From Escherichia virus TH22: a stretch of 64,000 nucleotides of DNA. The notes under the pieces are model-generated. The model did no database searches. It was not told where the DNA came from and worked only from the letters and a program-made list of their open reading frames with translations. The stretch lies in the sequence record MT446396.1; one strand, written 5' to 3'. Every line of letters begins with the position of its first letter. Within the stretch, counting starts at the first letter, position 1. Made by a program: the position numbers and the translations under genes. Positions 6,292 through 64,000 of the stretch are shown here, one piece after another.

Positions 6292-6297
6292 GGAATT

Positions 6298-6600: not shown

Positions 6601-6602
6601 AT

Positions 6603-7195: not shown

Positions 7196-7204
7196 ACGCT
7201 TTAT

Positions 7205-47604: not shown

Positions 47605-47781
47605 ATGCCACTTTATGATTACAAATGCCAATCTGATGACTGCGCGAAAGAATACGAAAAAATCAAGAAAATCTCTGAAAGAGATAATGATGTTTGTCCT
47701 GATTGTCATCGGCTGGCTGTTCGGTTAGTCTCGGCTCCCAAACATGTTAATGGCGGTTTTTACGACCTGCTGACTAAGTGA
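47605..47781 (+). CDS. FmdB-like zinc-ribbon protein
   Basis: 58 aa: MPLYDYKCQSDDC...VCPDCH; below track cutoff. Confidence 0.45.
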   Translation: MPLYDYKCQSDDCAKEYEKIKKISERDNDVCPDCHRLAVRLVSAPKHVNGGFYDLLTK

Positions 47782-47787
47782 GAAATT

Positions 47788-48048
47788 ATGAAATACATTA
47801 ATCGTTCTATTGCTGCGCTGGTTCTGGCAGTTTCATTAGCTGGTTGTACTGATGCAGATAACGCCATTCGTGTATTAGATGCAAACGGCTATGAGCAAAT
47901 CCAAATCACCGGATATAATTGGTTCTCTTGTGGTAAAGATGATTTCCAACACACAGGCTTTACGGCCGTGGGTCCAACTGGTAAGAAAGTTGAAGGAACT
48001 GTTTGTTCTGGTTTGTTGTTCAAGAATTCAACCATCCGATTTGAATGA
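47788..48048 (+). CDS. putative lipoprotein
   Basis: signal peptide with lipobox SLAGC. Confidence 0.45.
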   Translation: MKYINRSIAALVLAVSLAGCTDADNAIRVLDANGYEQIQITGYNWFSCGKDDFQHTGFTAVGPTGKKVEGTVCSGLLFKNSTIRFE

Positions 48049-48055
48049 GGATATT

Positions 48056-48460
48056 ATGTTTAAAATTGGAAAGAGTTATTGCATTAAAGATTTAGATGGC
48101 TTCCTTAAACATGTCGGTATGCCCGGTTGCATTTTGAACCAGCAAGGAACCTCTATTATTGATTTGATTACTACCAAAGAGTTTTCAGTCACCAAGATGG
48201 AAGCAAATGTTGTGACGGAATTTAGTACTATCGATGGAACTGGATTTTCTTTCCATAGTCGTAATGGAACCGGTCTTATTTTTGGTGATGAATTTAAATA
48301 TTTTGAAGAAGCTCCGGTAAAGGAATGTGATTCTGAAATAACCGAACAGGAATCAAAAGAGGATATCGTTGTTACCGGTGGCGATGTTATTATTACGGTT
48401 AAAACTGAAGCCGGTCGCCTACAAGCTATTAAAATGTTAGAGCAGCTTCGATTCAAATAA
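48056..48460 (+). CDS. hypothetical protein
   Basis: 134 aa from internal ATG of track ORF 47879..48460. Confidence 0.35.
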   Translation: MFKIGKSYCIKDLDGFLKHVGMPGCILNQQGTSIIDLITTKEFSVTKMEANVVTEFSTIDGTGFSFHSRNGTGLIFGDEFKYFEEAPVKECDSEITEQESKEDIVVTGGDVIITVKTEAGRLQAIKMLEQLRFK

Positions 48461-48480
48461 AAGGCCTTCGGGCCTTTTTG
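48461..48480 (+). terminator. intrinsic terminator
   Basis: AGGCCTTCGGGCCT hairpin + TTTT. Confidence 0.7.
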
Positions 48481-48525
48481 CTTTAAAATATGTGACTTAT
48501 AATACCTCCATACACAAGAGGAAAG

Positions 48526-50358: not shown

Positions 50359-50361
50359 ATA
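50354..50361 (+). promoter_or_regulatory. T4-type late promoter core TATAAATA
   Basis: exact TATAAATA followed by perfect 16-bp palindrome GGGAGAATATTCTCCC (50367-50382) and SD. Confidence 0.4.
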
Positions 50362-50400
50362 GATGTGGGAGAATATTCTCCCGTCTTATAGGAGAAGTCC

Positions 50401-50553
50401 ATGAAAAAGTGGTGGGTTACGTTGTCAAATGGCGAATACGGTTATCTGTGGGCCGAGACTAAACCTCTGTTTGCATCCTTTGTCACCATTATGTGCGAGA
50501 CCTGGGATGGTGAATACTATACCGCATATGGGCAAGTCTATAAAGTTGAGTAG
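50401..50553 (+). CDS. hypothetical small Trp/Tyr-rich protein
   Basis: 50 aa; AGGAGAAG SD; followed by terminator; below track cutoff. Confidence 0.3.
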   Translation: MKKWWVTLSNGEYGYLWAETKPLFASFVTIMCETWDGEYYTAYGQVYKVE

Positions 50554-50557
50554 CCAA

Positions 50558-50580
50558 AAGGACCTTCGGGTCCTTTTTTA
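50558..50580 (+). terminator. intrinsic terminator
   Basis: AGGACCTTCGGGTCCT hairpin + TTTTT. Confidence 0.7.
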
Positions 50581-50629
50581 TTATGTACAAGCCACAAAAA
50601 TTGTGTTAAGATATCCTTGAGGTGAACAT

Positions 50630-50914
50630 ATGATTATGTCTGACGGAAGTTTAGTTAATCTGCAGAATGTTGCACGTTGTATTATGGAAGCTGGTCTGAG
50701 GAAGGTACAGGAACTCCCAGATAGCGACAGGAAGCGAAGTTACTTGTTGGCTGTAAGAACAGCAGCCATGAGCATTAAGGCTGGTCAGAAGGTCCCTGAG
50801 GAGCGAATTGAAGCACTCCTTGCATTGATATACCATGGCCAAGAACATAAAGCTACCATGCGTAGTATGAGAAAAATATTGCAGGAGATTGGAAATGACA
50901 AACTTCAAAGTTAA
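50630..50914 (+). CDS. hypothetical protein
   Basis: 94-aa ORF. Confidence 0.35.
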   Translation: MIMSDGSLVNLQNVARCIMEAGLRKVQELPDSDRKRSYLLAVRTAAMSIKAGQKVPEERIEALLALIYHGQEHKATMRSMRKILQEIGNDKLQS

Positions 50915-51098
50915 TATGGAACTGTTTGATAAAGCTGTCCATAAAGAATACCGTGTTATCCAACGATTTTTTGATATAAGAGAAGCTGAAGAGTTTAAAG
51001 AACGCTTCAAAGAAATCCGTATTAAAATAGCTTCAGACACCGCAACAAAGGATGAACTTCTTGAAGTTGCAGAATTAATCAAACGTAACATAAAGTGA
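50895..51098 (+). CDS. hypothetical protein
   Basis: 67 aa from ATG with GGAG SD. Confidence 0.3.
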   Translation: MTNFKVNMELFDKAVHKEYRVIQRFFDIREAEEFKERFKEIRIKIASDTATKDELLEVAELIKRNIK

Positions 51099-51105
51099 GA
51101 AAAAC

Positions 51106-53340
51106 ATGATTTTAGAAACTGAAAAGGAAACAATCCTTGGTAATGGTGCCAAGGCATCAGCATTCACAATCCAGGCATCTCCAAAGGTGTTTAAGATTCT
51201 GACCAGTGACCTTTATACAAATAAGGTGCGCGCGGTTGTTCGTGAGCTGATTACCAATATGATTGATGCTCATATGCTCAATGGTTGTCAGGATAAATTC
51301 ATTGTTCAAGCTCCTGGTGAACTGGACCCACGCTTTGTGTGTCGTGACTTTGGTCCAGGTATGAGTGATTTCCAGATTCGTGGTGATGAAAACACTCCAG
51401 GTCTGTATAACAGTTTCTTTGCATCATCCAAGGCCGAATCTAATGATTTTATTGGTGGCTTTGGTTTGGGCTCTAAATCTCCGTTCAGTTATACAGAGAC
51501 GTTTAGCCTGATTTCGTATCATGATGGTCAAGTTAATGGTTATGTCGCTTATATGGACGGCGATGGTCCACAGATTAAGCCAACCTTTAGCGAACCAATG
51601 AAACCTGGCGACCGCACAGGGATTGAAGTTGTTGTCCCGGTTGATAGTAATGATTTTGGTAAGTTCCGCCACGAGATTGCATATATCATGCGCCCATTTG
51701 CTGGACTGGCTGAAGTACAAGGCGTAGGCGAAATTAATTATTTCCCGGAATTTGATGATTATTATGCTCCAGAGCGTATTAATTATAGCAGTCCAGAACG
51801 TTATGGGCTTTATGCAATTTACGGTGGAATTGTTTATCCAATTGCTGACGGTTATACAAAGAAAACCTGGATGACTGCCAAAAATGATGTTGTCTTTATT
51901 AAGTTCCCGATGGGTTCGTTGGATATTGCACCTTCTCGCGAAGCATTATCACTGGACAAACGTACTGTAGCAAATATCGTTGAACGTATTGAATCGCTTG
52001 ATAAGAAGGTCATGGAAGATGATTGTAAGAAATGGCAGGAAACAGAATGTATCCGCCATACGTATCGCGAATTGCAGAGTCTGAGTTATGAAGCTCGTAA
52101 TTTTCTGAAAGCTCGTAATGCTGAAACGAAATTTACGAAATCGCAATTGACCTTTAACCAGATGTACGAAATGTTCGAGCTGGATAAAGACCTTATTAAT
52201 GCCGGGGTTGTCTATGATATCTATAGCACTACCCGTCTGAAACGTCTGCGCAACTCAAGCTCGAACACGAATACTGCAAGTCTGACGAGCATGTTTGGTA
52301 TTCAGAATAATACCTTGAACATTGTTATTGACGATGCTAAAGGGCGAATTGCGATGATTCGTGGTATCAGTTCAATGCTATATGACACCAGCGCGAAAGC
52401 CAAAAAGCTCAAAGCATCTGGTAAAGTCCCGACTGTACAAGGTAGTAGTCTATTGTTCGTTGACCCAACCAGCGAAATTCAAACATGTCTGATGGTTCAA
52501 CTTCAAGAACGATTTAAAGGCGATACAGTTAATATCTATCGTACGTCTGAACTGACCGCCCTTGTAAAAGACTGGATTCCGGTTGCTGACCCGAAAGCGC
52601 GCGTTAAGTCAAAGACTCCATCATTGATTCGTTGGACTAAAACTAATGGCAAATGGCAGTCTGTTGAAGAATTTACATGTGCAGCTGATGCAGAGGAAAT
52701 CGATGGTTATGCTGTATTCATTAACCGCAGTAGCATTTCCCCGTTGAATCAAGAATATGGCACCACGACCTTCGGGACCCAGACATTGTGTAAACTGGCA
52801 AACCTGTTGGAAATCAATGAATTCTGTGTTATTCGTCCACAGCTTCAGAAAAAGATTACCAAGCTGGCGCAGTGTGATTGTCTGATTGAAGCTGCAGTCA
52901 ATCGTTATGTGGAATTGATTGATGCGGTTGATGCGGACCAGTACATTGCCGCTTCAAGCCGTTCACGTTATTATATTCCTATCCTGTCTGAATATGCAGA
53001 ACTGAATTTTATGTTCAAGTATTTTTATGCAAAAGATGTTCAGAAAGATGTGAATACTGACTATGCCGAACTAATGCAGTTCAATAAGTTCTTTGCTTAT
53101 AACGCATATAACAGTGGAACAGTTGATAAGACCATGCAGGAAACTCTGGTCCTTTGTAATAAGATTTATGACGACCTGACCAAAAACGCTTCGGTAACAA
53201 GCGATAAAATGGTTTTTGAATTTGAAAAGAATCACCCGATTGTTTCACACTTTTTATATAACCGTAACGCCATGTCAACTGAACAAGTACAGAACGTTGC
53301 TCAAATCATGAAGGCCGTGGAAGCGGCCAATAAGGAATAA
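51106..53340 (+). CDS. rIIA: rIIA (membrane-associated lysis-inhibition/exclusion protein, GHKL-like N-domain)
   Basis: 744 aa; N-terminal 300 aa near-collinear with T4 rIIA (TEKETILGNG..., RAVVRELITNMIDAH, GGFGLGSKSPF). Confidence 0.95.
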   Translation: MILETEKETILGNGAKASAFTIQASPKVFKILTSDLYTNKVRAVVRELITNMIDAHMLNGCQDKFIVQAPGELDPRFVCRDFGPGMSDFQIRGDENTPGLYNSFFASSKAESNDFIGGFGLGSKSPFSYTETFSLISYHDGQVNGYVAYMDGDGPQIKPTFSEPMKPGDRTGIEVVVPVDSNDFGKFRHEIAYIMRPFAGLAEVQGVGEINYFPEFDDYYAPERINYSSPERYGLYAIYGGIVYPIADGYTKKTWMTAKNDVVFIKFPMGSLDIAPSREALSLDKRTVANIVERIESLDKKVMEDDCKKWQETECIRHTYRELQSLSYEARNFLKARNAETKFTKSQLTFNQMYEMFELDKDLINAGVVYDIYSTTRLKRLRNSSSNTNTASLTSMFGIQNNTLNIVIDDAKGRIAMIRGISSMLYDTSAKAKKLKASGKVPTVQGSSLLFVDPTSEIQTCLMVQLQERFKGDTVNIYRTSELTALVKDWIPVADPKARVKSKTPSLIRWTKTNGKWQSVEEFTCAADAEEIDGYAVFINRSSISPLNQEYGTTTFGTQTLCKLANLLEINEFCVIRPQLQKKITKLAQCDCLIEAAVNRYVELIDAVDADQYIAASSRSRYYIPILSEYAELNFMFKYFYAKDVQKDVNTDYAELMQFNKFFAYNAYNSGTVDKTMQETLVLCNKIYDDLTKNASVTSDKMVFEFEKNHPIVSHFLYNRNAMSTEQVQNVAQIMKAVEAANKE

Positions 53341-53341
53341 T

Positions 53342-54313
53342 ATGTTTAATATCAAATGTATGTCTAAAGCCGAACAAGCTGATGTGGTCCAGATGTATTC
53401 AACGGGCAATTATACCCAGCCTGAATTGGCAGAATATTTTGCTGTGTCCGTTGACACCATTCGCCGCGTTTTGAAAAATGATAAAGAATCAAAATTAGCT
53501 AAAACCATTTCTGCATCACTGAAAGCAGCTGTTGGTGTGGCGATTAATGCTCCGGTGACAGTAACGGTTGAAGTCCCGGTTACTGATACAATCGGCGGAA
53601 GCCGACCGGAAATCGTATGGAATGCATCAAGCAAATTCGTTTCCATCACTGAAGGCCGTACAGTCTGGAACGCAACAAAAGACCATAAACACTTTGATGA
53701 TATTATTCAGGCACTCAAAGAATCTCGTTTTGACGATGCTATCGAGTTTATCTCAATCAAAGCTGCAGTACAAAAATATGTGAAAGGCGATGTGCGTATT
53801 GAAGGCGGTAGTCTGTTCTATCAGGGAATTGAACTGCGCTCTGGTCTGGTTACTCGTATCATCGATTCAATGCAAAATGGCGAAGACTTTGAATTCTATC
53901 TGCCGTTCCTTGAGAATCTCCTTGAGAACCCGAGTGAGAAAGCTGTGCAGCGTTTGTTTGACTTCCTGGTTGCAAACGATATCGAAATCACCGAAGACGG
54001 TCATTTCATCGCATGGAAAATGGTTCGTGCAACTTACAAAGATTGTCACTCAAACACATTCGACAACAGCCCTGGTCAATATGTTAAAATGCCGCGCTCT
54101 CGTGTGAATGACAACGACGAACAAACCTGTTCAACTGGACTGCACGTTTGTTCTAAAGGTTATATCGGAAGTGGTTTTGGTCATGGTGATGGACGCATCG
54201 TATCCTGTAAAGTTCACCCGCGTGATGTTGTAAGTATCCCGGTTGATTATAACGATTCCAAAATGCGGGTCTGTGGTTACTTAGTCCTTGATGATGTAAC
54301 TGAACAATTCTAA
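53342..54313 (+). CDS. rIIB: rIIB
   Basis: 323 aa; collinear with T4 rIIB (MFNIKCMSK..., SPGQYVKMPRSRVNDNDEQTCSTGLHVCSKGYIG). Confidence 0.95.
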   Translation: MFNIKCMSKAEQADVVQMYSTGNYTQPELAEYFAVSVDTIRRVLKNDKESKLAKTISASLKAAVGVAINAPVTVTVEVPVTDTIGGSRPEIVWNASSKFVSITEGRTVWNATKDHKHFDDIIQALKESRFDDAIEFISIKAAVQKYVKGDVRIEGGSLFYQGIELRSGLVTRIIDSMQNGEDFEFYLPFLENLLENPSEKAVQRLFDFLVANDIEITEDGHFIAWKMVRATYKDCHSNTFDNSPGQYVKMPRSRVNDNDEQTCSTGLHVCSKGYIGSGFGHGDGRIVSCKVHPRDVVSIPVDYNDSKMRVCGYLVLDDVTEQF

Positions 54314-54346
54314 ATTAATCGGGGCTTCGGCCCCTAATGAGGCTTT

Positions 54347-54544
54347 ATGTTAGGTTTCCAAGCACGTGCAGTTGAAGAACATGACCAGCTGGTTTTGAAA
54401 ATTAATGCTCTTGAAGAATTTATTAAGGGCGGTGTTTTTGAAACTCTCGATGCTCGTCAACAAGGTCTTTTGATTGCCCAGTTAGATGCGATGGGTGCTT
54501 ATGCTCATGTACTGGCAACTCGTATCTCTTATTTTGGTGAATAA
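54347..54544 (+). CDS. hypothetical protein
   Basis: 65-aa ORF. Confidence 0.3.
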   Translation: MLGFQARAVEEHDQLVLKINALEEFIKGGVFETLDARQQGLLIAQLDAMGAYAHVLATRISYFGE

Positions 54545-54547
54545 ATT

Positions 54548-54868
54548 ATGATTAACTATATGAACGTTGGCGATGAATCTATTAACGAAATTCGATTGCA
54601 TGGTAATCATGTTGCGGATATTGTTTATTGTGTTGATTGTCATTATGCTTCCACAAAGTCAACTGGCCGGTTATATGCGAGAGACATCATTCTTGCAACG
54701 AAAGAAGAACTTCGTAGTCTGGACCATTCTACTCTAGCCGAAAGTGCCAGAATTTATTATGGCGTCGTTCATGTAGACAAAGTTTATATTGGCAGTGATT
54801 ATCAAGAGCAAGCTGAGCAAAATTCTTTGGATGTTGTCGAAAAATCCGATATGTATTTTAAAGGATGA
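54548..54868 (+). CDS. hypothetical protein
   Basis: 106-aa ORF. Confidence 0.3.
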   Translation: MINYMNVGDESINEIRLHGNHVADIVYCVDCHYASTKSTGRLYARDIILATKEELRSLDHSTLAESARIYYGVVHVDKVYIGSDYQEQAEQNSLDVVEKSDMYFKG

Positions 54869-54872
54869 GCTG

Positions 54873-55466
54873 ATGATTCAGAAGAGTAAAACATGGGAGC
54901 ATCTGAAAAAGATGCCCTCCTTTCTTTATACAAAGGAAGACTTAACCCCCGAATCCCTGCAAAAGATTGTAGACACTGCCAGGTATTCATTGCGTAAAGA
55001 CCCAGGTCAGGACCGTGAGCAAGTCATGCAAAGATGTATGGTGGCTACAATGGCTGAACAAGCTATTGCTAAATGGACTTCAGGTTTTTTATGTGGTGGC
55101 GATGAAGATTACGATAATCCTTATTCCTTTGCATTTGATGTAGTTTCGAAGGAAGGGGTGAGAATCGAAGTCAAGACCCACCAGTCTGGTTCCAAATGGA
55201 TATCCGTGCATACTGGTCACCAGGGTGATTATCCGCATGGTTACGGGATTAATCTTGGTCCTTTTATGCAGCACAAGCTTGCCGACCTTATGATTATGCT
55301 CGATGTAAAAGAGACTCTCAAAGGTTGTAGATTTAAACCAAAATTCCTTGCTGGACCTGGTGCTTTCGTTCCTGAGTCTGGTCTTGTGCAGAAGTCACAA
55401 GGGGATGGTTGGTACCTCCGTTCTTGTTCAGAAGAAAAATTTCCCTATCACCGGTTTACAAGCTGA
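54873..55466 (+). CDS. hypothetical protein with PD-(D/E)xK-like motif (candidate nuclease)
   Basis: 197 aa; FDVVSKEGVRIEVK fits the D-x(n)-E-x-K pattern; in the interval where T4 has denB. Confidence 0.35.
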   Translation: MIQKSKTWEHLKKMPSFLYTKEDLTPESLQKIVDTARYSLRKDPGQDREQVMQRCMVATMAEQAIAKWTSGFLCGGDEDYDNPYSFAFDVVSKEGVRIEVKTHQSGSKWISVHTGHQGDYPHGYGINLGPFMQHKLADLMIMLDVKETLKGCRFKPKFLAGPGAFVPESGLVQKSQGDGWYLRSCSEEKFPYHRFTS

Positions 55467-55513
55467 ACCAACTATGTAATAATGTCCTCATACCAACAAA
55501 TGAGGGCATTATC

Positions 55514-55789
55514 ATGGAACACGTTACTACTCACAACATCAAACAAATTCTTATTCAAGCACTCAAAAACAATAACATCAATTTTCCAACCCATGAAATT
55601 TTTGATGTGGTATTCAACGAAGTTCAGGGTCAAGTTGCATATTATGACGTTATCGTTTATCTTTCAGAATTTGAAGTCTATCACCTGACTGAAATTGCTT
55701 TCTATCTCTATCGTGGGACTGCAGATTTCACTGGGGTTGTGAATGCAGTTGGTGCATATAAAGAAGTTAAAGAACAAATGCAAAATTAA
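55514..55789 (+). CDS. hypothetical protein
   Basis: 91-aa ORF. Confidence 0.3.
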   Translation: MEHVTTHNIKQILIQALKNNNINFPTHEIFDVVFNEVQGQVAYYDVIVYLSEFEVYHLTEIAFYLYRGTADFTGVVNAVGAYKEVKEQMQN

Positions 55790-55799
55790 TTAAAAAGTA

Positions 55800-55864
55800 G
55801 TGTACATCAGTATGGAGTCTATTGTATAATGATTCCATACTGAGTTACCAAACTGGAGAATAAA
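55800..55864 (+). promoter_or_regulatory. early promoter with family-B leader
   Basis: AGTAGTGTACA, TATAAT, TTCCATACTGAGTTACCAAA. Confidence 0.55.
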
Positions 55865-56020
55865 ATGAAACCTGCTCAATATGCAATGACTTTATACCTT
55901 GAAGTTAATGGCGATATTACTGAATTTTTTAAATTAATGCAACAACGCGGAAAAAGTTTTGCAGTTACTGAGCGTCAATTTTACGCTTGCCGTAAAAATA
56001 CATACAATCGTTATGCGTGA
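55865..56020 (+). CDS. hypothetical small protein
   Basis: 51 aa; below track cutoff. Confidence 0.25.
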   Translation: MKPAQYAMTLYLEVNGDITEFFKLMQQRGKSFAVTERQFYACRKNTYNRYA

Positions 56021-56030
56021 GGAAAACAGA

Positions 56031-56291
56031 ATGGATATTAAATTATACTACGCCAAACACAAAGTTACAGGTAAAGTTGTTGCCGCCATGTACGATGCAT
56101 CAGGTGAAGATGTTATTACGGAATTATCCCTTTCTAATTGTAGATTTCTTCGTCCTTTGCTAGCATCAAAAAAAGATTTACAAAAACTTATCGACGGTAA
56201 ATTAGATAATGTCGATGGTATAGATATTCATTATGAACTCCGCCATGCACTGAATGATGGGTTTATGGAAATAAAAGAGATAGTATTATGA
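56031..56291 (+). CDS. hypothetical protein
   Basis: 86-aa ORF. Confidence 0.3.
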   Translation: MDIKLYYAKHKVTGKVVAAMYDASGEDVITELSLSNCRFLRPLLASKKDLQKLIDGKLDNVDGIDIHYELRHALNDGFMEIKEIVL

Positions 56292-56381
56292 GTAGCAAAA
56301 CCTGGTGTCTTATCTGGATGTTGTGTATCCCAGTAATTTGCGTTTGTTTTAGTTTATTATTATTGAAACTTGCATAAAAGA

Positions 56382-56436
56382 GTGTACATCTCCAGTGGTT
56401 GTAGTATAATGAACCTATCAACTACTGGAGATGATT
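56382..56436 (+). promoter_or_regulatory. early promoter with family-A leader
   Basis: GTGTACA, TATAAT, CCTATCAACTACTGGAG. Confidence 0.5.
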
Positions 56437-56547
56437 ATGAAAAACTTACTTAAAGCAATTTGGAACATGTTTGTGTTGTTAATGGTATTGAGCATTTTCC
56501 CAATCGTTTTTATGATTGACCATGTACGTGTATTCTTTAACTTCTGA
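56437..56547 (+). CDS. hypothetical small hydrophobic peptide
   Basis: 36 aa, one transmembrane-like helix; GGAG SD. Confidence 0.25.
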   Translation: MKNLLKAIWNMFVLLMVLSIFPIVFMIDHVRVFFNF

Positions 56548-56557
56548 GGAAAATATT

Positions 56558-56704
56558 ATGGGTAATCGAATTTATAAAGTAAAGCTGCACGGTAAAGTGA
56601 TTGCAACCCTTAGCTTTAATGCTTATATCAGTGCTGATTGTGCTCGTGATATCCTCATTGAGGAAGGTTATAGCAAATACATCCAAATTGAAGAAATTCT
56701 TTAA
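56558..56704 (+). CDS. hypothetical small protein
   Basis: 48 aa; TTCTGAGGAAAATATTATG leader, the same leader repeated before 56722. Confidence 0.25.
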   Translation: MGNRIYKVKLHGKVIATLSFNAYISADCARDILIEEGYSKYIQIEEIL

Positions 56705-56721
56705 CTTCTGAGGAAAACATT

Positions 56722-56925
56722 ATGAAACTTTTTAAAGATGTTGCAGTTGGTGAGAGCTTTGTATTACATAATGGTCAACAACTGATTCGTATTTCTCCTT
56801 TACAAGTTGGCGGCGAATTACAGCCTGTAAATGCTACAGACCTTTATGATTCAACTAAGCGTTTTTGCGTAGGCCCTAGTGTACAGTGCCTTACCGTTGA
56901 TGAACTGATGGCTATTTCTGAATAA
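56722..56925 (+). CDS. hypothetical protein
   Basis: 67-aa ORF with the same leader. Confidence 0.3.
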   Translation: MKLFKDVAVGESFVLHNGQQLIRISPLQVGGELQPVNATDLYDSTKRFCVGPSVQCLTVDELMAISE

Positions 56926-56935
56926 GGAAAATATT

Positions 56936-57280
56936 ATGTCTAAAGTATTTTTTGGTAATCGCAACATTATGTTCTTTAAACAGATTAGCGTATCAGAAGC
57001 ATTTGATTTAAGTTATTCAGGTGGTACAAAAGCTGTTAACCTTAAAAATTTGATGTCTGCAGAATTTGCATTCTATCAGGACCCTGAAACTGGTTTCTAC
57101 AAATTTATTAAGTTCCGCATGACTATGGACCGAGATTATCGCGATGTTTATTATACAAGTTATGAGAGTGTTATCAATGCAATTCGCGAAGCTTATGGAT
57201 TGGATTCGTTGTCTCTTGACCGCTTGTATAATGCTACTTTTTATACGAGCGGATTTATTTTAGAACAACTTCAAAAATAG
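56936..57280 (+). CDS. hypothetical protein
   Basis: 114-aa ORF. Confidence 0.3.
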   Translation: MSKVFFGNRNIMFFKQISVSEAFDLSYSGGTKAVNLKNLMSAEFAFYQDPETGFYKFIKFRMTMDRDYRDVYYTSYESVINAIREAYGLDSLSLDRLYNATFYTSGFILEQLQK

Positions 57281-57353
57281 TGTACAAACTCTTGGGGTCA
57301 GAGTATAATGACCCCACTGGAGCACAAAACTTTAACTTACTGAGGAAATTAAT
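57281..57353 (+). promoter_or_regulatory. PeSL-type cassette (family C)
   Basis: 43-nt core identical to 46403..46445. Confidence 0.6.
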
Positions 57354-57803
57354 ATGACTACTTACATGACCCGTCGTGACGTACTGAATGCTGGCGCTAC
57401 CACTGTTGCTTACATCCATAATGGTAATTATGTCGCAGGGCGTCCAACTAAAGAAGCTATCACCCAACCAGGTTTTTATTTCGTGGTTAAAGGTGAAGGC
57501 GAATCACGTATTGTTGCTGCACGTTTTTACGTTGGTAACCAACGTTCACAACAAGGGTTTGACACTGTATTAAGTCACATCCGCAAACAGCGTTCTCAAC
57601 TGTCTCGCACAATGGCGAACAATGGTGTTATCTATGAAGTCCTGTTTGTTCCAGTTTCTAAAATGAAACCTCTGACAACTGGTTATGGTAAAGGTCAAAT
57701 TGCGATGGCGTTCACACGCTCGCATAGTTCTGATTGCCAGACCCTTTCAGAAATGAATCGCATGCTTGCTGATAACTTTAAATTCATTCTGCAGAGTTAT
57801 TAA
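57354..57803 (+). CDS. ndd: nucleoid disruption protein Ndd
   Basis: 149 aa; position upstream of stp/52 and recalled similarity to T4 Ndd ([31 protein letters not shown]). Confidence 0.55.
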
Positions 57804-57804
57804 T

Positions 57805-57978
57805 ATGAGACATTTCTTTGCAATGGGTTACTTATTTGTTTTAGCACTATTTGTTATTACAGGAGCCTTTATAGCCTTTGGCGCTCCATTTAATGATAAA
57901 GTTGCTGTTACTATGTGCTTTAGTGGTGGGTATATCTGTTTTGAACGCTTATGCAAAATGTGTGGTATATATGAGTAA
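57805..57978 (+). CDS. hypothetical small membrane protein
   Basis: 57 aa hydrophobic; below track cutoff. Confidence 0.3.
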
Positions 57979-58051
57979 TTTCCATAATGAACATGTGATG
58001 CAATGGCATCGTCATAATCTGAAATTAACTGGCGTCTTCGGGCGCCCTTGA
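57971..58051 (+). CDS. stp: Stp peptide (activator of host anticodon nuclease PrrC via EcoprrI)
   Basis: 26-aa [29 protein letters not shown]; length, position (ndd-stp-52) and sequence match T4 Stp as recalled. Confidence 0.6.
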
Positions 58052-58058
58052 GGAAAAT

Positions 58059-58220
58059 ATGATTATCCTAGTTTTTATTGAACTTATTATAGCTATTGTT
58101 TGTTCGGTTTGCTTCTTTTTAGGCGTGTGGACCCCTGGTCCGCTATTCTTAAGTTTTCTGTTTATTGGCTGGATTCTTTCTACTTTTGTCGGTTTACTTA
58201 AGATGATTAAAAATGATTAA
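58059..58220 (+). CDS. hypothetical small membrane protein (ac-like by position)
   Basis: 53 aa hydrophobic, between stp and gene 52; below track cutoff. Confidence 0.3.
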   Translation: MIILVFIELIIAIVCSVCFFLGVWTPGPLFLSFLFIGWILSTFVGLLKMIKND

Positions 58221-58361
58221 GAAAATCCTGGGCTACTCGTTAGCCCTTGCTGCCTTATTGGTAGCGCTGTATTATGGAGTTGTATTTGCATTAGTGCAGA
58301 TTGTGCTTTTTATTTCTGATGCTATAATGGCAGTACATTCGTTAATCTGGTAAGGTGATAT

Positions 58362-59741
58362 ATGTCTGACGTTTTAAGTATGATGTCCAAACAGTTCAGT
58401 GATTCCATGGGGACCCTTAACCCACGCAGTCTAAAAGACATTATTGATGTGGAAGCATTGTCATATGCTATCTACACTGTGGAAGGTCGTGCCATCCCAA
58501 ACATGATTGATGGTTTTAAACCAGTTCACAGATTTGTTATGGCGAGAGCATTAGACCTGGCACGCGGTGATAAGAATAAATTTCATAAGGTTGCATCCAT
58601 CGCAGGTGGCGTAGCTGATTATGGTTATCACCATGGTGAAGCATCAGCGGAAGAAGCAACTTCTGGTCTGGTTGCAACATATAAAAATGAATATCCTATG
58701 TTTGATGGGCAAGGTAACTTTGGTTCCAGAATGGTGCCAGAAGCATCATCAGCTCGTTATGTATTCGCAAGGGTTTCAAAGAACTTTTATAACTTGTTTA
58801 AGGATACAGAATATGCTCCGGTCCATCCTGATGAAGAACATAAGCCTCCTGCTTTTTATCTTCCTGTTATTCCTACTGTATTACTTAACGCCACTTCTGG
58901 GATTGCTGTTGGCTTCGCTACTGATATTCTGCCTCATTCGTTCCAGGACGTCAAGGAAGCTGTTAAAGCTATCGTGGAAGGTCGGGAACCGGTTGCTCCG
59001 AAAGTAAAATATCCAGAATTCCGCGGTAAAGTGGTTGAGCTGGAAGAGCCTGGCAAGTATGAGCTTCATGGCACATACAAAATGACTTCCAGGACCCAAA
59101 TGGAAATTACTGAAATTCCGGTCCAATGGAACCTGGAAAAGTATACAAGTAAAATACTTGACCCGTTGGAAGAGAAAGGTTTTATCACCTGGAAAGATAA
59201 CTGCGGTGAGCATGGTTTTGGGTTTAAGATTAAATTCCGCAAAGAATACAAGTTGGATGGTACTGAACAAGAAAATCATGAGAAAATCATGAAAGACTTT
59301 GGTCTGATTGAGAAGCTCTCCCAGAACTTAACGGTGCTTAATCACAAAGGCAAACTGGCCGAATACACCAACACGCTTGACCTGATTCGCGATTTCGTTG
59401 ATGTTCGTAAGACTTATGTTCAAGTGCGAATTGACAGTAAGATTAAAGAAACTGAAGCAGCGTTTAAACTGGCCCGGGCAAAAGTATTCTTTATTAAAGA
59501 AGTGATTGACGGTAAGGTTGTTATCCAGGGGAAACCTCGTAAGAAGTTGATTGAGGAACTCCAGGCGAGTGAAATATATGGCGATTATGCAGAGAAGTTA
59601 GTGGCGATGAACATCTACCATATGACCTCTGATGAAGCCAAGAAGCTTGCAGACGAAGCAAAGGCTAAGAAAGCTGAGCATGAGTACTGGAAGACAACTG
59701 ATGTTAAAACTGAATACCTTAATGATTTGGAGGCTCTATGA
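58362..59741 (+). CDS. 52: DNA topoisomerase II medium subunit gp52 (GyrA-like)
   Basis: 459 aa; collinear with T4 gp52 (AIPNMIDGFKPV.RF, active-site region SSARYVFARVS). Confidence 0.9.
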   Translation: MSDVLSMMSKQFSDSMGTLNPRSLKDIIDVEALSYAIYTVEGRAIPNMIDGFKPVHRFVMARALDLARGDKNKFHKVASIAGGVADYGYHHGEASAEEATSGLVATYKNEYPMFDGQGNFGSRMVPEASSARYVFARVSKNFYNLFKDTEYAPVHPDEEHKPPAFYLPVIPTVLLNATSGIAVGFATDILPHSFQDVKEAVKAIVEGREPVAPKVKYPEFRGKVVELEEPGKYELHGTYKMTSRTQMEITEIPVQWNLEKYTSKILDPLEEKGFITWKDNCGEHGFGFKIKFRKEYKLDGTEQENHEKIMKDFGLIEKLSQNLTVLNHKGKLAEYTNTLDLIRDFVDVRKTYVQVRIDSKIKETEAAFKLARAKVFFIKEVIDGKVVIQGKPRKKLIEELQASEIYGDYAEKLVAMNIYHMTSDEAKKLADEAKAKKAEHEYWKTTDVKTEYLNDLEAL

Positions 59742-59834
59742 GTTTTGGAGTGGAGTTTGCATTGCTTTGTATTTTTGCGGCAATCGCAGGTGTGATTGTT
59801 GGTATGTTTATTGGTAATAAGATAGATAAAGACT

Positions 59835-59858
59835 AGGACCCTTCGGGGTCCTTTTTTA
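59835..59858 (+). terminator. intrinsic terminator
   Basis: GGACCCTTCGGGGTCC + TTTTTT; same hairpin as at 5982. Confidence 0.7.
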
Positions 59859-59949
59859 TTTTAAAAAGTAGTGTACAATCCCCTTGACCCGCTGCATAAT
59901 AATTCCATACTGAGTTACACAATGAATCACAAAAACTTTGGAGAATAAA
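59859..59949 (+). promoter_or_regulatory. early promoter with family-B leader
   Basis: AGTAGTGTACA, CATAAT, TTCCATACTGAGTTAC. Confidence 0.5.
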
Positions 59950-60165
59950 ATGTTTACTGCACAACAGAATGAAGGTCAAGAATACATTAACATCAAATTC
60001 AAATCTAACAAAGAAGCTTGCTATTACTACTTTGACATGTTCAAACTGGCGAATTCTAAAGAAGAACGTAAACAAGCGATTGATGTGATTGTTTCTACTT
60101 CCCATATGAAACGTACTGTGGTACAATCATATGCATCAAATTACATGAAATCTATTAAGGGATAA
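59950..60165 (+). CDS. hypothetical protein
   Basis: 71-aa ORF. Confidence 0.3.
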   Translation: MFTAQQNEGQEYINIKFKSNKEACYYYFDMFKLANSKEERKQAIDVIVSTSHMKRTVVQSYASNYMKSIKG

Positions 60166-60167
60166 TT

Positions 60168-60776
60168 GTGAACAAGTTAAATTATATCGTTAAATGCTCC
60201 CAGAACGCGCTGCATGAGACTGATGTCAATGCTCTGGTGTTTGTATACAAAAACAACTTTGTGAGTCCAGAGGTTGTTTTAGACCAGCAGAACACATCAA
60301 TTGATAGTGTGCAGACCTTGTTGAATAACAACTATGTTGAAGCTTCTGGTGATGGTTTGATGATTACAGAAAAGGGTGTTGGCCTTATTCTGGATGCAGC
60401 TGAACTTTGGGCGAATGAAAATAATCCTGACCTTCTGGAAGTGAAGAAGACAAGAACAAAACGCGGTGTGACTGATGAAATGGAAGCGACTGCAGAATAT
60501 ATCAAAGAGCAATTGTTGTCTATTGATATTGACTTTAAGAGCATTTCAGAAGACCGCAGCAATCTGATTGTGAAGTTCAAGCGTATCAAGACATTAAAAC
60601 AGATTGATGTACGTCGTGATGGTCAGATTCGCGTACATGCGTATAATACTGAACAAAAGATAGTAAAACAGTTTACAGACGTGGGATTTAGCGTTAAAGT
60701 GGGTGGATTGAATACCTACATTGACAACGTTATGTCAACTGAAAACATTCAACATGTTATTAACATCTTAAAGTGA
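60168..60776 (+). CDS. motA: MotA-like middle-transcription activator (by synteny)
   Basis: 202 aa, GTG start with AGGGA SD; between gene 52 and asiA as T4 motA. Confidence 0.45.
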   Translation: MNKLNYIVKCSQNALHETDVNALVFVYKNNFVSPEVVLDQQNTSIDSVQTLLNNNYVEASGDGLMITEKGVGLILDAAELWANENNPDLLEVKKTRTKRGVTDEMEATAEYIKEQLLSIDIDFKSISEDRSNLIVKFKRIKTLKQIDVRRDGQIRVHAYNTEQKIVKQFTDVGFSVKVGGLNTYIDNVMSTENIQHVINILK

Positions 60777-60783
60777 GGAAATT

Positions 60784-61116
60784 ATGAATAAGCTGAATAT
60801 TGTTAATGAATTGCGCGCTTGTGTAGAACCTACTCAAGAGGGTTGGGATGTTTGGTATCATGGCGCTTACCTTGGAACTATTATCAAGGTCAAAGCTGGT
60901 CAGTATCTTATCCATCGTCAGGATGATGCAGTAGCTCCGTTTGGTGCACGCAAGAACTTCATGGCAGCGATTGGTGCCTTTGTTCCAGCAGCATATGAAG
61001 TATATAAAGCTGACTACAAAGAATACCAGGAATCACAACCAGTTATTCGCTCAATTGGTGTTAATAAAGCTCAACAGAAAAGTCTGTGGCAACGTGTTAA
61101 AGGTTGGTTCAAATGA
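60784..61116 (+). CDS. hypothetical protein
   Basis: 110-aa ORF. Confidence 0.3.
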
Positions 61117-61601
61117 ATCCATTAAAAGGTAAAGAATTATCCTTTAAAGACCGTATAGCTTTATTAGATAAAGCTCTTTCTCGCGAGACTCCAGAAAGCC
61201 TCGCTGCTAAATTACGGGCATATGGTGATTACACCGAATATAATGAAGAAGATGTCCTGGAAGAAGTCCCGGAAATCTGTTGGCAGATTGCTCATTGGAA
61301 CAACAATGAAAAATATCAGCGCCGGATTGTGTGCGCAGCCAACCGCTTCAGGTTAAAAGATGGTGGGACTCTGGTTATTCCTGGTGCCAGACATTATTCA
61401 AAAGATATGGCAGAAGTTCTTGACCAGGTAAGTGATAAACTTGTGTCAGACCATGTTTGTGGTGATAATCAAGGATTCATTGACCAATACAGCAATTACT
61501 GGACCCGCGAAGAAGCAATGATTATTGCGACTTATGCAAATCAGGTGCGCATTGAACGTGGCGGTAGTGAGAAAGAACTTTATTCAGAGGACCTTTACTA
61601 A
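61104..61601 (+). CDS. hypothetical protein
   Basis: 165-aa ORF. Confidence 0.3.
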
Positions 61602-61879
61602 TGAACCTTAAACAACTCCAAATTGATGCGATTGAAAACCATATTAATCATATCAAACGGCTGAATACCATGATGGAAGACAACTGGGGAACTTATGTTA
61701 ACCAGCCAGGTTGGGATGCCCTAGACCATGAATATATAAAGGATATTAGTGATAACACATATAGAGTTAGAGAAGGCCTGAAACCATTCCTGCGTGATAT
61801 GTATATTGCGACCAATAAAGAAATTATTAGTTCTCTTGAATACCAATTAAGGAAATTGTATGAACAACCTGGTAGCTAA
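61601..61879 (+). CDS. hypothetical protein
   Basis: 92-aa ORF. Confidence 0.3.
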   Translation: MNLKQLQIDAIENHINHIKRLNTMMEDNWGTYVNQPGWDALDHEYIKDISDNTYRVREGLKPFLRDMYIATNKEIISSLEYQLRKLYEQPGS

Positions 61880-62191
61880 ACACGATTTCAATAAGGCGTC
61901 TGTCCATAAGGACAAGAAGAAAACAGAAATGCAGTCCAAACGTAAGCAGAAGCACAAGGGGAATCACTATGAGTCATAACTTAGAGAATGCCATCACTGG
62001 TCAGCGTACACGCGAGCAGGCTTGCTTTGAGGAATTCCTTGGAGCTGATTTTAAGTTCCAGGAACCAGTTGAACAGATGTATCAGGAATATGTTGTACAG
62101 ATGGAAAATCATGTGTACAACCCAGAGGAATAATAGTACAATATCCTTACTGAATAATTGAATGTCTTATTGAATACTTGAGTAAATTAAA

Positions 62192-62467
62192 ATGACTAAA
62201 TTTGAAATCGTTTCTGAAATTGTTACTGTAACTTCAATTTTGATTAAAACCGACCGGGAAGATATTACGATGAAGCGTGATGTGTTTATCGCGTTTTTGA
62301 ATGAGTTGGGATTGAGGAATGAGAATGGTAATGAGTTAAACAATGTATCGTTTAACAAGTTGTTTAAAAGTTTATCTGAAGATGAAATTGAACAAATCAT
62401 TGAACAATTTAACGAAGGATTCGAAGATATACACCGTTATCTTATGATGTATACCTCCGGATTCTAA
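62192..62467 (+). CDS. asiA: anti-sigma70 factor AsiA
   Basis: 91 aa; EIVTVTSILIK..REDI...FIAFLNE.G...FNEGFE..HRYL.MYT matches T4 AsiA; convergent with t. Confidence 0.75.
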   Translation: MTKFEIVSEIVTVTSILIKTDREDITMKRDVFIAFLNELGLRNENGNELNNVSFNKLFKSLSEDEIEQIIEQFNEGFEDIHRYLMMYTSGF

Positions 62468-63117
62468 CGTGTACGCCCAAGCGTACGACCTGCTTGTCCA
62501 CACATAGCAGAAAGCCTATCAAAACCAAGGATAGGTTTTTGCTTATACCAGTACAGCGAGACTGTACCTGCATAAACGTTTTCCAAATTAAAGAATGGGC
62601 AGCTGAACATATATGAGAAGCTGCTTTTTTTCTTTGTTGGTAAGAATACAGATTCCGTACTGGATTCAAAATAATTACCATTAACCCCCGCCAAATATTC
62701 TGCTGAAGTTTTATCTATTGGAAACCCACCCAAATTTTTTTCGTCGACTGTATCAGGCAATATCCCCTCATATCCCACCATATCCACAAAGTAGTTAAGG
62801 TTAGTTGGTCTAAAAGAATATATTGCTGTAAAGTCTGCTCCACTTGACGAGTGGACTATCTGGATTTGCTCGATAGCTGCAATTTTAAATCTGTTATCCT
62901 GGTCTTGCCTTATCATTTCTGTGTACGAGGCATATGAAGCATCCCTGTACGCATCTAAAATTGCATCACCTTTATACCAGATTACCACCATTAAAAATAA
63001 TAGAACAATAACTAGTACCCGGGAAAAAACAACTTTCCCGGTCGCATTATCTTTAAAAATTCTATCAAGAAGTCCAAAAAGTAGATCGGGTATTGATATT
63101 CCTACTTTTGGTTCCAT
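62464..63117 (-). CDS. t: holin T
   Basis: 217 aa; single N-terminal TM; near-collinear with T4 T (DLLFGLLDRIFKDNATGKV..., YSFRP.NLNYFVD, YMFSCP.FNL.N.YAGT). Confidence 0.9.
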   Translation of the reverse strand: MEPKVGISIPDLLFGLLDRIFKDNATGKVVFSRVLVIVLLFLMVVIWYKGDAILDAYRDASYASYTEMIRQDQDNRFKIAAIEQIQIVHSSSGADFTAIYSFRPTNLNYFVDMVGYEGILPDTVDEKNLGGFPIDKTSAEYLAGVNGNYFESSTESVFLPTKKKSSFSYMFSCPFFNLENVYAGTVSLYWYKQKPILGFDRLSAMCGQAGRTLGRTR

Positions 63118-63139
63118 ACTTTCTCCTTAACTTTAAAGA

Positions 63140-63147
63140 TATTTATA
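63140..63147 (-). promoter_or_regulatory. late promoter TATAAATA for t
   Basis: - strand TATAAATA 20 nt upstream of SD AAGGAGAAAGT-ATG. Confidence 0.55.
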
Positions 63148-63152
63148 AGTTC

Positions 63153-63937
63153 TTAACTAAGCCAAGGACCATAAATCGTACCTGTCGCGCCCCATGCAGG
63201 AGCAGAAACGGCAACAGCAGCTCCAGAACCGCCACCGGCGCCGACTTTTAGAACTTTACCGCCATCGTGCCATGCGTTCTGGCCTGCACCACCGGCATCG
63301 CCGCCACGACCCGAGTGGGCATTACCATAATCGTATCCACTGCCAGGGCTTTCATAAGAAGCACCACCGCCGGAGTATGCACCACCACCACCTGGACCAA
63401 ATGGGCGTCCGCCTCCACCGCCGATATCTTGCCAGTTTGCACCCGAGTGAGGCCGATAAGCAATGGCACCGCCACCACCACCGCCGCCACAGATAACCCC
63501 ATAGTTCCAAATACGTAGTCTATGACCTATATGGTTGACTATACAATCACCACCCCATTGACCGTTACCGTCTCCACCTGAGTGGGTCCAACCACCGTGT
63601 CCACCACGTCCCCACATATGAACCCCGCCATGAATAGTCAAATTGACATATTCATTAGGTGTATCGCCGTTCATAAAGAACAATGGAACGTTACGGTCGT
63701 AAGATACTATATCGCCTACAATATTGAACACAATAGGCGCGCTACCAGCTTCAAAGCAGCGGTCTCATTAAAGTTATGGTTTGCCGTTATAGTGTGAATT
63801 ACTTCAACAGACCGACCTATCATATTGCCCATCCAAAACGGAGCACCCATTCTCAATCGCTGGGCGGCGCCGCCCATCCAATTTTGTCCAGTATTAACTA
63901 CTGCAGACCACCCTACCCACGGTCCTTCAACTGCCAT
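63153..63937 (-). pseudogene. 38: receptor-recognising adhesin gp38 (T2-type, Gly-rich motifs), split across two frames
   Basis: N-terminal part (63716..63937, ATG with GGAGG SD) and Gly-rich C-terminal part (63153..about 63764) are in different frames; the C-part frame shows TAA TGA directly upstream of [18 protein letters not shown]. Confidence 0.6.
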
Positions 63938-63949
63938 ATAAACCTCCAA

Positions 63950-63966
63950 GGGGCCGAAGCCCCTCT
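63950..63966 (-). terminator. GC hairpin between genes 37 and 38
   Basis: GGGGCCGAAGCCCC palindrome directly upstream of the gene 38 SD. Confidence 0.4.
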
Positions 63967-64000
63967 TATTATTTTAACAATGATTTAATTAATGCTTTAA

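What the first reader, a model, noticed from the sequence alone, without database searches (positions are those of the whole stretch)
63153..63937. Adhesin gene 38 (T2-type) is split by a frame change
The N-terminal gp37-binding region (MAVEGPWVGWSAV...HNFNE) and the Gly-rich receptor-binding region ([18 protein letters not shown]...GGGGGGG...) are in different frames, overlapping near 63716-63770; the C-part frame shows TAA TGA immediately upstream. Either the adhesin is inactivated, or this is a sequencing indel, or the phage uses frameshifting or phase-variable expression of its receptor-binding protein.
Basis: seen in the sequence. Interest (0 to 1): 0.55.

Follow-up and report, generated by a model that had tools for sequence, protein, structure and literature searches.

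The report
Adhesin gene broken by 13-bp deletion
The tail-fibre adhesin gene (gene 38) of this T2-like coliphage is split only because 13 bases present in all its close relatives are missing, which is an ordinary knock-out lesion or a sequence error and not a regulatory device.

Summary
On the minus strand, gene 38 starts at 63937. It reads 57 native codons plus 16 out-of-frame codons and stops at 63716-63718. The rest of the protein (residues 63-265) lies in the -1 frame, 63764-63156, with its stop at 63153-63155.

The cause is one clean 13-bp deletion (GGTCAATGGTTCC, junction at 63765-63767). It is seen against phages UPEC07 and TH55, which are otherwise 100% identical over this 901-nt stretch and encode an intact 265-aa gp38. 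It is the only indel against TH55 from about window 8100 to 64000 (about 56 kb). The junction occurs in no public collection searched.

The deletion removes G58-F61 and one base of the R62 codon. That is the start of a conserved helix inside the beta-helix domain, not a domain linker.

I found no slippery heptamer, no homopolymer or repeat tract, no stimulatory RNA structure and no Shine-Dalgarno sequence before any restart codon. Apart from rare lesions at other sites, every relative examined reads through this position in one frame. Programmed frameshifting and phase variation are therefore not supported.

T2-type gene 38 is experimentally essential. So this is either an error in the record (favoured) or a genuinely defective genome. 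Reads are needed to decide. Interest is low.

The parts
63153..63937 (-). Gene 38 (T2-type long-tail-fibre adhesin) as a whole. It is 785 nt here against 798 nt in intact relatives, so it is not a multiple of three and is split into two frames.
63716..63937 (-). N-terminal ORF of 73 codons plus a TAG stop (63718-63716). Residues 1-57 are native (63937-63767) and hold the whole Gp38_N attachment domain, including W7, W20 and W35. They are followed by 16 out-of-frame residues, [16 protein letters not shown].
   Evidence: (PF21721, E = 5.7e-20). The domain description comes from PMC6851490.
63765..63767 (-). Deletion junction. Thirteen bases (gene strand GGTCAATGGTTCC, or equally GTCAATGGTTCCG) are missing between ...CATAACTTTAAT and GAGACCGC.... 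Placement is ambiguous by 1 nt, which means 1 nt of microhomology. The junction itself creates the TGA that closes the C-frame upstream.
   Evidence: Alignment A1 and pairwise comparisons.
63765..63770 (-). TAA TGA in the C-frame, immediately upstream of DRCFEAG.
63153..63764 (-). C-frame remainder of gene 38. Its 203 codons equal residues 63-265 of the intact protein: most of the beta-helix and the polyglycine receptor-binding sandwich. It ends at stop TAA 63155-63153 and has no start codon of its own at its 5' end.
   Evidence: PF05268; 100% identity to UPEC07 gp38 residues 63-265.
63729..63731 (-). First possible restart codon in the C-frame, a GTG that would give a 192-aa product. It lies 11 nt upstream of the N-frame stop. 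The upstream sequence AAGCTGGTAGCGCGCCTATT has no Shine-Dalgarno match. The product would lack the attachment domain and the first 30 positions of the GP38 profile.
63943..63947 (-). Shine-Dalgarno sequence GGAGG of gene 38, 5 nt upstream of the ATG.
   Evidence: Read directly from the sequence. Identical in UPEC07, TH55 and QL01.
63949..63964 (.). GC-rich hairpin (gene strand AGGGGC-UUCG-GCCCCU) between the gene 37 stop and the gene 38 ribosome-binding site.
   Evidence: Conserved in relatives.
63969..64000 (-). Last 32 nt of gene 37 (distal long-tail-fibre subunit), including its stop. The rest of gene 37 lies beyond the window.
   Evidence: Mapped from the UPEC07 annotation through alignment A1.
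62464..63117 (-). Holin gene t, directly downstream of gene 38. It is intact at 217 aa. A T4 late-promoter-like TATAAATA sits at 63147-63140.
   Evidence: PF11031. The promoter motif was read.

Best explanation
This is the ordinary T2-type adhesin gene 38 of a Gaprivervirus-like T-even coliphage. It carries one private, non-programmed 13-bp deletion.

As the sequence is written, ribosomes starting at ATG 63937 make a 73-residue product. It holds the complete gp37-attachment helical domain, two beta-strands and 16 junk residues, and it terminates at 63716. The receptor-binding part (residues 63-265) is in the -1 frame with no ribosome-binding site. It is therefore not made, or is made only in traces and without the domain that fixes it to the fibre. 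The gene as written is a null allele.

T2-type gene 38 is essential for plaque formation. I therefore think the lesion most likely does not represent an infectious phage. It is more probably an error of sequencing, assembly or consensus building, or a consensus taken from a non-clonal stock. In that case the real phage encodes the intact 265-aa protein found in UPEC07 and TH55.

Shown here: the deletion, its uniqueness, the absence of recoding signals, and its position inside a folded element. Inferred: that the lesion is an error rather than a real allele.
For: -: over 901 nt the window is 100% identical to UPEC07 and TH55 apart from one 13-bp gap.
- against TH55, the 35.7 kb from 28296 to 64000 shows 6 SNPs and this single indel. 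No other indel occurs from about window 8100 to 64000.
- UPEC07 and TH55 agree with each other at all five SNP sites in the 16.3 kb compared. Three of those SNPs are synonymous.
- the junction 25-mer is absent from the viral, genome and metagenome contig collections, and the two fragment proteins are not on record in the assemblies collection. A megablast of window 63100-64000 found no match to this region in the E. coli genomes or plasmids.
- the three closest lineages (TH55, UPEC07, Logan SRR16019343) all have the intact 265-aa gene.
- the top 60 phage records read through residues 58-62 in one frame. Nearly all of 114 homologue clusters are 256-268 aa with both Pfam domains.
- no slippery heptamer, no homopolymer, no Shine-Dalgarno sequence before any restart codon, and an RNA fold z-score of -0.66.
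- the deleted GQWF(R) is the start of a conserved, high-confidence helix (residues 61-70 of the MX01 gp38 model) inside the beta-helix domain. The model matches 9V85 and 6F45.
- PMC12892980: a T2-type gene 38 deletion phage forms plaques only when gp38 is supplied from a plasmid.
- deposited genomes of plaque-forming isolates (Bp7, vB_EcoM_RZ) also carry gp38 ORFs with frameshift-like C-terminal tails. Broken gp38 frames in records of viable phages therefore have precedent.
Against: A 13-bp loss outside any homopolymer or repeat is not a typical sequencing or assembly error. The rest of the window looks error-free, with no other indel over about 56 kb, which argues that the assembly is read-supported. 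The source record and its reads are not available in any collection I could search. The choice between error and real allele therefore rests on the essentiality argument and not on data. If the window comes from a metagenome, an engineered stock or an experimentally evolved stock, the essentiality argument weakens.
Confidence: 0.55

Rival explanations
1. The deletion is real, and the sequenced genomes are truly gp38-defective. They cannot infect on their own. They were recovered because they were complemented by co-infecting wild type or by gp38 supplied in trans, because the phage was deliberately engineered or selected as a gene 38 knock-out, or because the sample was an uncultured or mixed population.
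For: The assembly is otherwise clean, and the indel is not of the type made by homopolymer or repeat errors. Gene 38 knock-out T-even phages kept on complementing hosts exist as laboratory tools (PMC12892980). An independent split gp38 occurs in a 168-kb metagenome scaffold, caused by a different lesion, a 2-nt insertion after about codon 43.
Against: A null allele of an essential gene should not reach consensus frequency in an ordinary lysate. Nothing in the window indicates engineering: there are no scars, and the five private SNPs look like natural drift. No other public sequence carries the junction.
Confidence: 0.3
2. The deletion is real and the phage is viable without a full-length adhesin. 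It would adsorb through the bare or altered gp37 tip or the short tail fibres. Alternatively it would use a two-piece adhesin: the N-fragment caps gp37 and a re-initiated C-fragment associates non-covalently.
For: The N-fragment keeps the complete attachment domain (PMC6851490). A GTG lies 11 nt before the N-frame stop, so termination-reinitiation is geometrically possible. In relatives gp37 carries its own C-terminal Peptidase_S74 chaperone domain, so fibre assembly as such may not need gp38 (inference).
Against: The break is not at a domain boundary. It removes the start of a conserved helix and leaves two beta-strands of the beta-helix on the wrong fragment. The restart product would lack 30 profile positions of the GP38 domain and any means of attachment. 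Deleting gene 38 in a T2-type fibre abolishes plaque formation. Gene 37 of this genome lies outside the window, so compensating changes could not be examined.
Confidence: 0.06
3. Full-length adhesin is made by programmed recoding within the 49-nt frame overlap, either a -1 ribosomal frameshift or a short ribosome hop. Alternatively the locus is a phase-variable switch.
For: A -1 shift anywhere in 63764-63716 would join the two frames. By inspection, an N-frame GCT (gene nt 181-183) has a matching C-frame GCT 8 nt downstream (nt 189-191), so a hop is formally possible.
Against: There is no X_XXY_YYZ heptamer in the whole gene, no homopolymer of 4 nt or more within nt 120-260, and no simple repeat. 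No RNA structure exceeds shuffled controls. No stop codon or hairpin follows the putative take-off codon. The arrangement is unique to this window, while near-identical relatives have one frame. Any recoded product would still lack GQWF of a conserved helix. A 13-bp loss cannot switch back.
Confidence: 0.02

Closest known systems
T2-type receptor-recognising protein gp38 (Pfam PF21721 Gp38_N + PF05268 GP38; structures: S16 gp37-gp38 tip 6F45, PP01 gp38 RBD 9V85). Nearest sequences: gp38 of Escherichia phages UPEC07 (QUL77480.1) and TH55.
   Same: The sequence is 100% identical to UPEC07 and TH55 gp38 over residues 1-57 and 63-265. It has the same two Pfam domains, the same position between gene 37 and holin t, and the same ribosome-binding site and upstream hairpin.
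   Different: Thirteen bases are missing (G58-F61 plus one base of the R62 codon). The gene is therefore in two frames and cannot give the 265-aa protein.
Laboratory gene 38 knock-outs of T2-type fibres, e.g. DT2(delta-g38) in PMC12892980
   Same: The adhesin is lost while gene 37 and gene t stay in place. The expected phenotype is no plaques without gp38 supplied in trans.
   Different: That construct is a designed, complete deletion joining gene 37 to gene t. Here a 13-bp internal loss leaves an attachment-domain fragment that could still be expressed.
Programmed -1 frameshift sites of phages and bacteria (lambda G/GT tail chaperone, E. coli dnaX); from general knowledge
   Same: Two overlapping frames are related by -1.
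   Different: There is no slippery heptamer, no stimulatory structure and no conservation of the two-frame layout in relatives.
T4 gene 60 translational bypass; from general knowledge
   Same: It occurs in a T-even phage, and matching GCT codons in the two frames are present by inspection.
   Different: There is no stop codon after the take-off codon and no take-off hairpin. The gap is a deletion relative to relatives, not an inserted coding gap.
Other broken gp38 genes in public data: metagenome scaffold ERZ28579267 scaffold_93 (L010); Bp7 and vB_EcoM_RZ gp38 records
   Same: The gp38 reading frame is interrupted in an otherwise normal T-even genome.
   Different: The lesions and sites differ: a 2-nt insertion after about codon 43 plus a loss of about 60 nt in the Gly region, and C-terminal frame changes. 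This argues for sporadic lesions or errors and against a conserved switch site.

Membership tests
T2-type gp38 adhesin | N-terminal gp37-attachment domain (Pfam Gp38_N, conserved Trp residues) | tested here: met
   PF21721, E = 5.7e-20, on window 63719-63937. W7, W20 and W35 are present.
T2-type gp38 adhesin | GP38 domain with glycine-rich motifs and hypervariable segments (Pfam PF05268) | tested here: met
   PF05268, E = 2.9e-48, on the 192-aa C-frame ORF; matches to 9V85 and 6F45.
T2-type gp38 adhesin | Location between distal fibre gene 37 and holin gene t | tested here: met
   holin at 62464-63117 and the gene 37 3' end at 63969-64000.
T2-type gp38 adhesin | One continuous ORF of about 250-270 aa joining both domains, as a functional gene requires | tested here: not met
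   the two domains are in different frames. A 13-bp gap is seen against relatives.
T2-type gp38 adhesin | Three-domain fold: helical bundle, five-ring beta-helix, polyglycine sandwich | tested here: inconclusive
   The model is of a homologue (MX01 gp38, P0002; pLDDT 85). It matches 9V85 (TM 0.86) and 6F45 (TM 0.76-0.81). The window's own product cannot adopt the fold as one chain.
Programmed -1 ribosomal frameshift site | Slippery heptamer X_XXY_YYZ in the zero frame within the overlap | tested here: not met
   none anywhere in the gene.
Programmed -1 ribosomal frameshift site | Downstream stimulatory RNA structure | tested here: not met
   minimum free energy -32.6 kcal/mol against a shuffle mean of -30.1, z = -0.66.
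Programmed -1 ribosomal frameshift site | Two-frame organisation conserved in relatives | tested here: not met
   relatives have a single frame.
Phase-variable (contingency) locus | Homopolymer or short tandem repeat at the switch point | tested here: not met
   no run of 4 nt or more in gene nt 120-260. The missing 13 nt are unique sequence with 1 nt of microhomology.
Phase-variable (contingency) locus | Both ON and OFF states seen in one population | not testable with these tools
   This needs the reads of the source sample.
Translational bypass (T4 gene 60 type) | Matched take-off and landing codons with a stop codon and hairpin at take-off | tested here: not met
   Matching GCT codons exist (sequence). 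The codon after take-off is TTG, not a stop, and there is no significant structure.

The most novel reading that the evidence does not exclude
A clonal, plaque-forming T2-type phage that has truly lost its covalently intact gp38 adhesin. It would infect through a bare or adapted gp37 tip, through the short tail fibres, or through a non-covalent two-piece adhesin made by termination-reinitiation at GTG 63731.
Probability: 0.05. Interest if true: 0.65.

Novelty: already known. Interest (0 to 1): 0.12.

Why it matters
As it stands, this matters mainly for annotation and quality control. The gene should be labelled as gene 38 (adhesin) with a frameshift from a 13-bp deletion. It should not be annotated as two genes or as a recoding site. 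Host-range predictions based on gp38 should use the repaired 265-aa sequence, which is identical to UPEC07 and TH55.

The finding would become interesting only if reads and plaque assays showed the deletion to be clonal in an infectious stock. That would mean a T2-type long tail fibre can work without its canonical adhesin.

Tried and rejected
1. Finding the source record or a second carrier of the deletion.
- The junction 25-mer is absent from viral contigs, genome contigs and metagenome contigs.
- A window-specific 40-mer is absent from viral contigs.
- Exact look-ups of both fragment proteins found nothing.
- There is no match in E. coli genomes or plasmids.
- The best phage records, TH55 and UPEC07, are intact.
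The source and its gene 37 could therefore not be examined.

2. Recoding. The heptamer, homopolymer and restart-codon scan and the RNA fold were both negative. A formal GCT-to-GCT hop was rejected because it has no stop codon or hairpin.

3. Deletion mechanism. Only 1 nt of microhomology flanks the loss. The nearby AATGGT direct repeat would delete 7 nt, not 13, so slipped-strand deletion between repeats is rejected (by inspection).

4. Recurrence of N-terminally truncated gp38. Two of the short gene calls, P0017 and P0077 (phage FL18), turned out to be start-site miscalls with an in-frame upstream ATG. They are not lesions.

5. A protein search with the 73-aa N fragment returned a single candidate. 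It led to the unrelated split allele in L010.

6. Literature. Searches for a reported 13-bp or truncated gp38 allele, or for Gaprivervirus gp38 work, gave nothing relevant.

7. A second gp38 copy in the window: none found.

Full report
**Observation**

The region 63153-63937 on the minus strand holds gene 38 of a T-even phage, split between two frames.
- The first frame starts at ATG 63937, preceded by GGAGG at 63947-63943.
- It reads MAVEGPWVGWSAVVNTGQNWMGGAAQRLRMGAPFWMGNMIGRSVEVIHTITANHNFN, then 16 unrelated residues, and stops at TAG 63718-63716.
- The second frame is -1 relative to the first. It is closed by TAA TGA at 63770-63765.
- It then runs open from 63764 ([18 protein letters not shown]...) through the glycine-rich region to TAA 63155-63153.
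- The two frames overlap for 49 nt.

Pfam places Gp38_N (PF21721) on the first piece and GP38 (PF05268) on the second.

**Cause of the split**

A megablast of 63100-64000 against 50,697 phage records found Escherichia phages UPEC07 (MW250787, Uganda) and TH55 (MT446421, USA) as best hits. In the four-way alignment, the window is identical to both at every one of its 901 positions. The only difference is one gap. The relatives have GGTCAATGGTTCC between ...CATAACTTTAAT and GAGACCGCTG..., and the window does not.

The gap can be placed in two ways that differ by one base, so it has 1 nt of microhomology. Restoring the 13 bases gives the 798-nt, 265-aa ORF annotated in UPEC07. tblastn of that protein maps residues 1-57 and 63-265 onto the window at 100% identity. 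Residues 58-62 (GQWFR) are missing. The TGA that closes the downstream frame is created by the junction itself.

**How isolated the lesion is**

- Against TH55, window 28296-64000 (35.7 kb) shows six substitutions and this single indel.
- All other indels against TH55 lie before about window 8100. They occur as paired, compensating events inside a diverged mosaic block.
- Over the 16.3 kb also covered by UPEC07, UPEC07 and TH55 agree with each other at all five substitution sites, and the window alone differs.
- Three of those changes are synonymous. The others are rIIA S313T and MotA G120D.
- A Logan assembly (SRR16019343) carries the same holin and an intact 265-aa gp38.
- The junction sequence is absent from IMG/VR, the GTDB genome set and the JGI metagenome contigs.
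- The two fragment proteins are not on record among the 153 billion indexed gene positions.
- There is no match in E. coli complete genomes or PLSDB plasmids.

The window therefore comes from a natural close relative of a widely distributed lineage. The deletion is private to it.

**Position in the protein**

S16 gp38 consists of an N-terminal three-helix bundle whose apical tryptophans plug into gp37. A short linker, a five-ring beta-helix with a capping helix, and a polyglycine sandwich that binds the receptor follow it (PMC6851490).

I modelled a homologue, MX01 gp38 (P0002), with a 47-sequence alignment. P0002 is 87.6% identical to the UPEC07 protein by tblastn.
- The model has mean pLDDT 85.
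- It matches the PP01 RBD 9V85 (TM 0.86) and S16 gp38 6F45 (TM 0.76-0.81).
- It has strands at residues 48-52 and 55-58 and a confident helix at 61-70 (QWFRDRCFEA).
- In window numbering the deletion removes G58-F61 and one base of the R62 codon. That is the start of this helix, after the first two strands of the beta-helix domain.

The motif NGQWFRDRCFEAG is identical in most coliphage gp38 sequences. The break is therefore inside a folded, conserved element and not at a linker where a split protein might plausibly reassemble.

**Tests of programmed expression**

- A -1 shift within 63764-63716 would join the frames. However, the gene contains no X_XXY_YYZ heptamer at all, and no homopolymer of 4 nt or more lies within gene nt 120-260.
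- The 161 nt around the site fold no better than shuffles (z = -0.66).
- Possible restart codons in the downstream frame are GTG 63731, TTG 63683 and ATG 63674. None has a Shine-Dalgarno sequence.
- A product starting at any of them would have no attachment domain.
- By inspection there is a GCT in the first frame and a GCT 8 nt downstream in the second. There is no stop codon or hairpin at the take-off position, so a gene-60-type hop has no support.
- Phase variation needs a reversible tract. A 13-bp loss of unique sequence is not reversible.
- The two-frame layout is not conserved. The 60 best tblastn records read through residues 58-62 in one piece. Nearly all of the 114 homologue clusters (at 90% identity) are 256-268 aa with both domains.

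**Other broken gp38 genes**

- A search with the N fragment found a 46-aa Gp38_N-only protein on a 168-kb metagenome scaffold. Its gp38 is split by a different lesion: a 2-nt insertion after about codon 43, together with a loss of about 60 nt in the glycine region.
- The gp38 records of isolates Bp7 and vB_EcoM_RZ end in tails that look frameshifted.
- Two apparently N-truncated calls (phage FL18 and a JGI scaffold) are only start-site miscalls.

Broken gp38 frames thus occur sporadically, at different sites, and sometimes in records of phages that clearly grow. That pattern fits errors or random lesions and does not fit a mechanism.

**Interpretation**

As written, the gene is a null allele. 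It would express a 73-residue attachment-domain fragment and essentially no receptor-binding domain.

T2-type gene 38 is essential. A T4 derivative carrying T2 genes 37 and 38 with gene 38 deleted forms plaques only on cells that supply gp38 from a plasmid (PMC12892980). A null allele should therefore not dominate an infectious clonal stock.

My estimates:
- About 0.55: the lesion is an error of the record, or a consensus drawn from a non-clonal stock.
- About 0.30: it is a real defective genome (complemented, engineered, or from a mixed or uncultured sample). The cleanliness of the rest of the assembly and the atypical nature of the indel speak for a real deletion, which is why I keep this so high.
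- About 0.06: a viable phage that manages without an intact gp38.
- About 0.02: recoding or phase variation.

Only reads, or resequencing with plaque assays, can settle the first two.

**Verdict**

The gene is a known kind (T2-type adhesin) with an ordinary frameshifting deletion. Interest is low.

Noticed in passing
L010:5001-5719 (ENA ERZ28579267, CHIN23-1 metagenome scaffold_93, 168 kb): An independent split gp38 in a PP01-like Tequatrovirus metagenome scaffold, called as a 46-aa Gp38_N fragment and a 165-aa GP38 fragment. A 2-nt insertion (TCT CT GTT) after about codon 43 causes the split. The locus is also about 58 nt shorter in the glycine-rich region than its closest isolates. The same 46-aa product is on 5 contigs.
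   Followed up: partly
Proteins P0054 (Escherichia phage Bp7 gp38) and P0056 (vB_EcoM_RZ gp38): Both deposited gp38 proteins lose similarity to the family after about residue 215-220. They end in non-glycine tails that look like frameshifted C-termini, in records of plaque-forming isolates.
   Followed up: no
L011:1443-2214 (phage FL18, PP400780.1) and L012:948-1741 (JGI Ga0495776_001669): The gp38 genes are annotated or called about 20-30 codons short at the N-terminus. In both, the canonical ATG (MAVEGPW...) is present upstream and in frame. These are start-site miscalls, not truncations.
   Followed up: yes
window 63949-63964: A conserved GC-rich hairpin with a UUCG tetraloop on the gene strand lies between the gene 37 stop and the gene 38 Shine-Dalgarno sequence. 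On the + strand it scores as terminator-like with a T-rich tail, so it may also stop antisense read-through from the early-gene side.
   Followed up: partly
window 63140-63147 (minus strand TATAAATA): A T4 late-promoter consensus sits between the gene 38 stop and the holin gene t start (63117). Expression of t should therefore not depend on translation or transcription through the broken gene 38.
   Followed up: no
window 1-8100 versus 8100-64000: The genome is a mosaic relative to TH55 and UPEC07. Identity is 86-93% with many paired indels in the first ~4 kb. It is 98.4% over 4050-32296, where all indels lie before ~8.1 kb. It is 99.95% over 28296-64000. This suggests a recombination boundary near the left part of the window.
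   Followed up: partly
window 47671-64000 versus UPEC07 (Uganda), TH55 (USA) and Logan SRR16019343: UPEC07 and TH55 carry the same base at all five window SNP sites in this 16.3 kb. The Logan contig matches TH55 at both SNP sites in the 4.2 kb it covers. The isolates come from different continents, so this early-gene and adhesin block appears to circulate nearly unchanged worldwide.
   Followed up: no
window 59835-59954: This 120-nt stretch downstream of the topoisomerase medium-subunit gene has a second, 83%-identical copy elsewhere in the TH55 genome (L005 26203-26322). It looks like a short dispersed repeat.
   Followed up: no
L007:1807-5136 (TH55 gene 37): The 1109-aa gp37 of the closest relatives carries a C-terminal Peptidase_S74 (intramolecular chaperone) domain. 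Fibre folding in this lineage may therefore not need gp38. This bears on what a gp38-null particle would look like.
   Followed up: no
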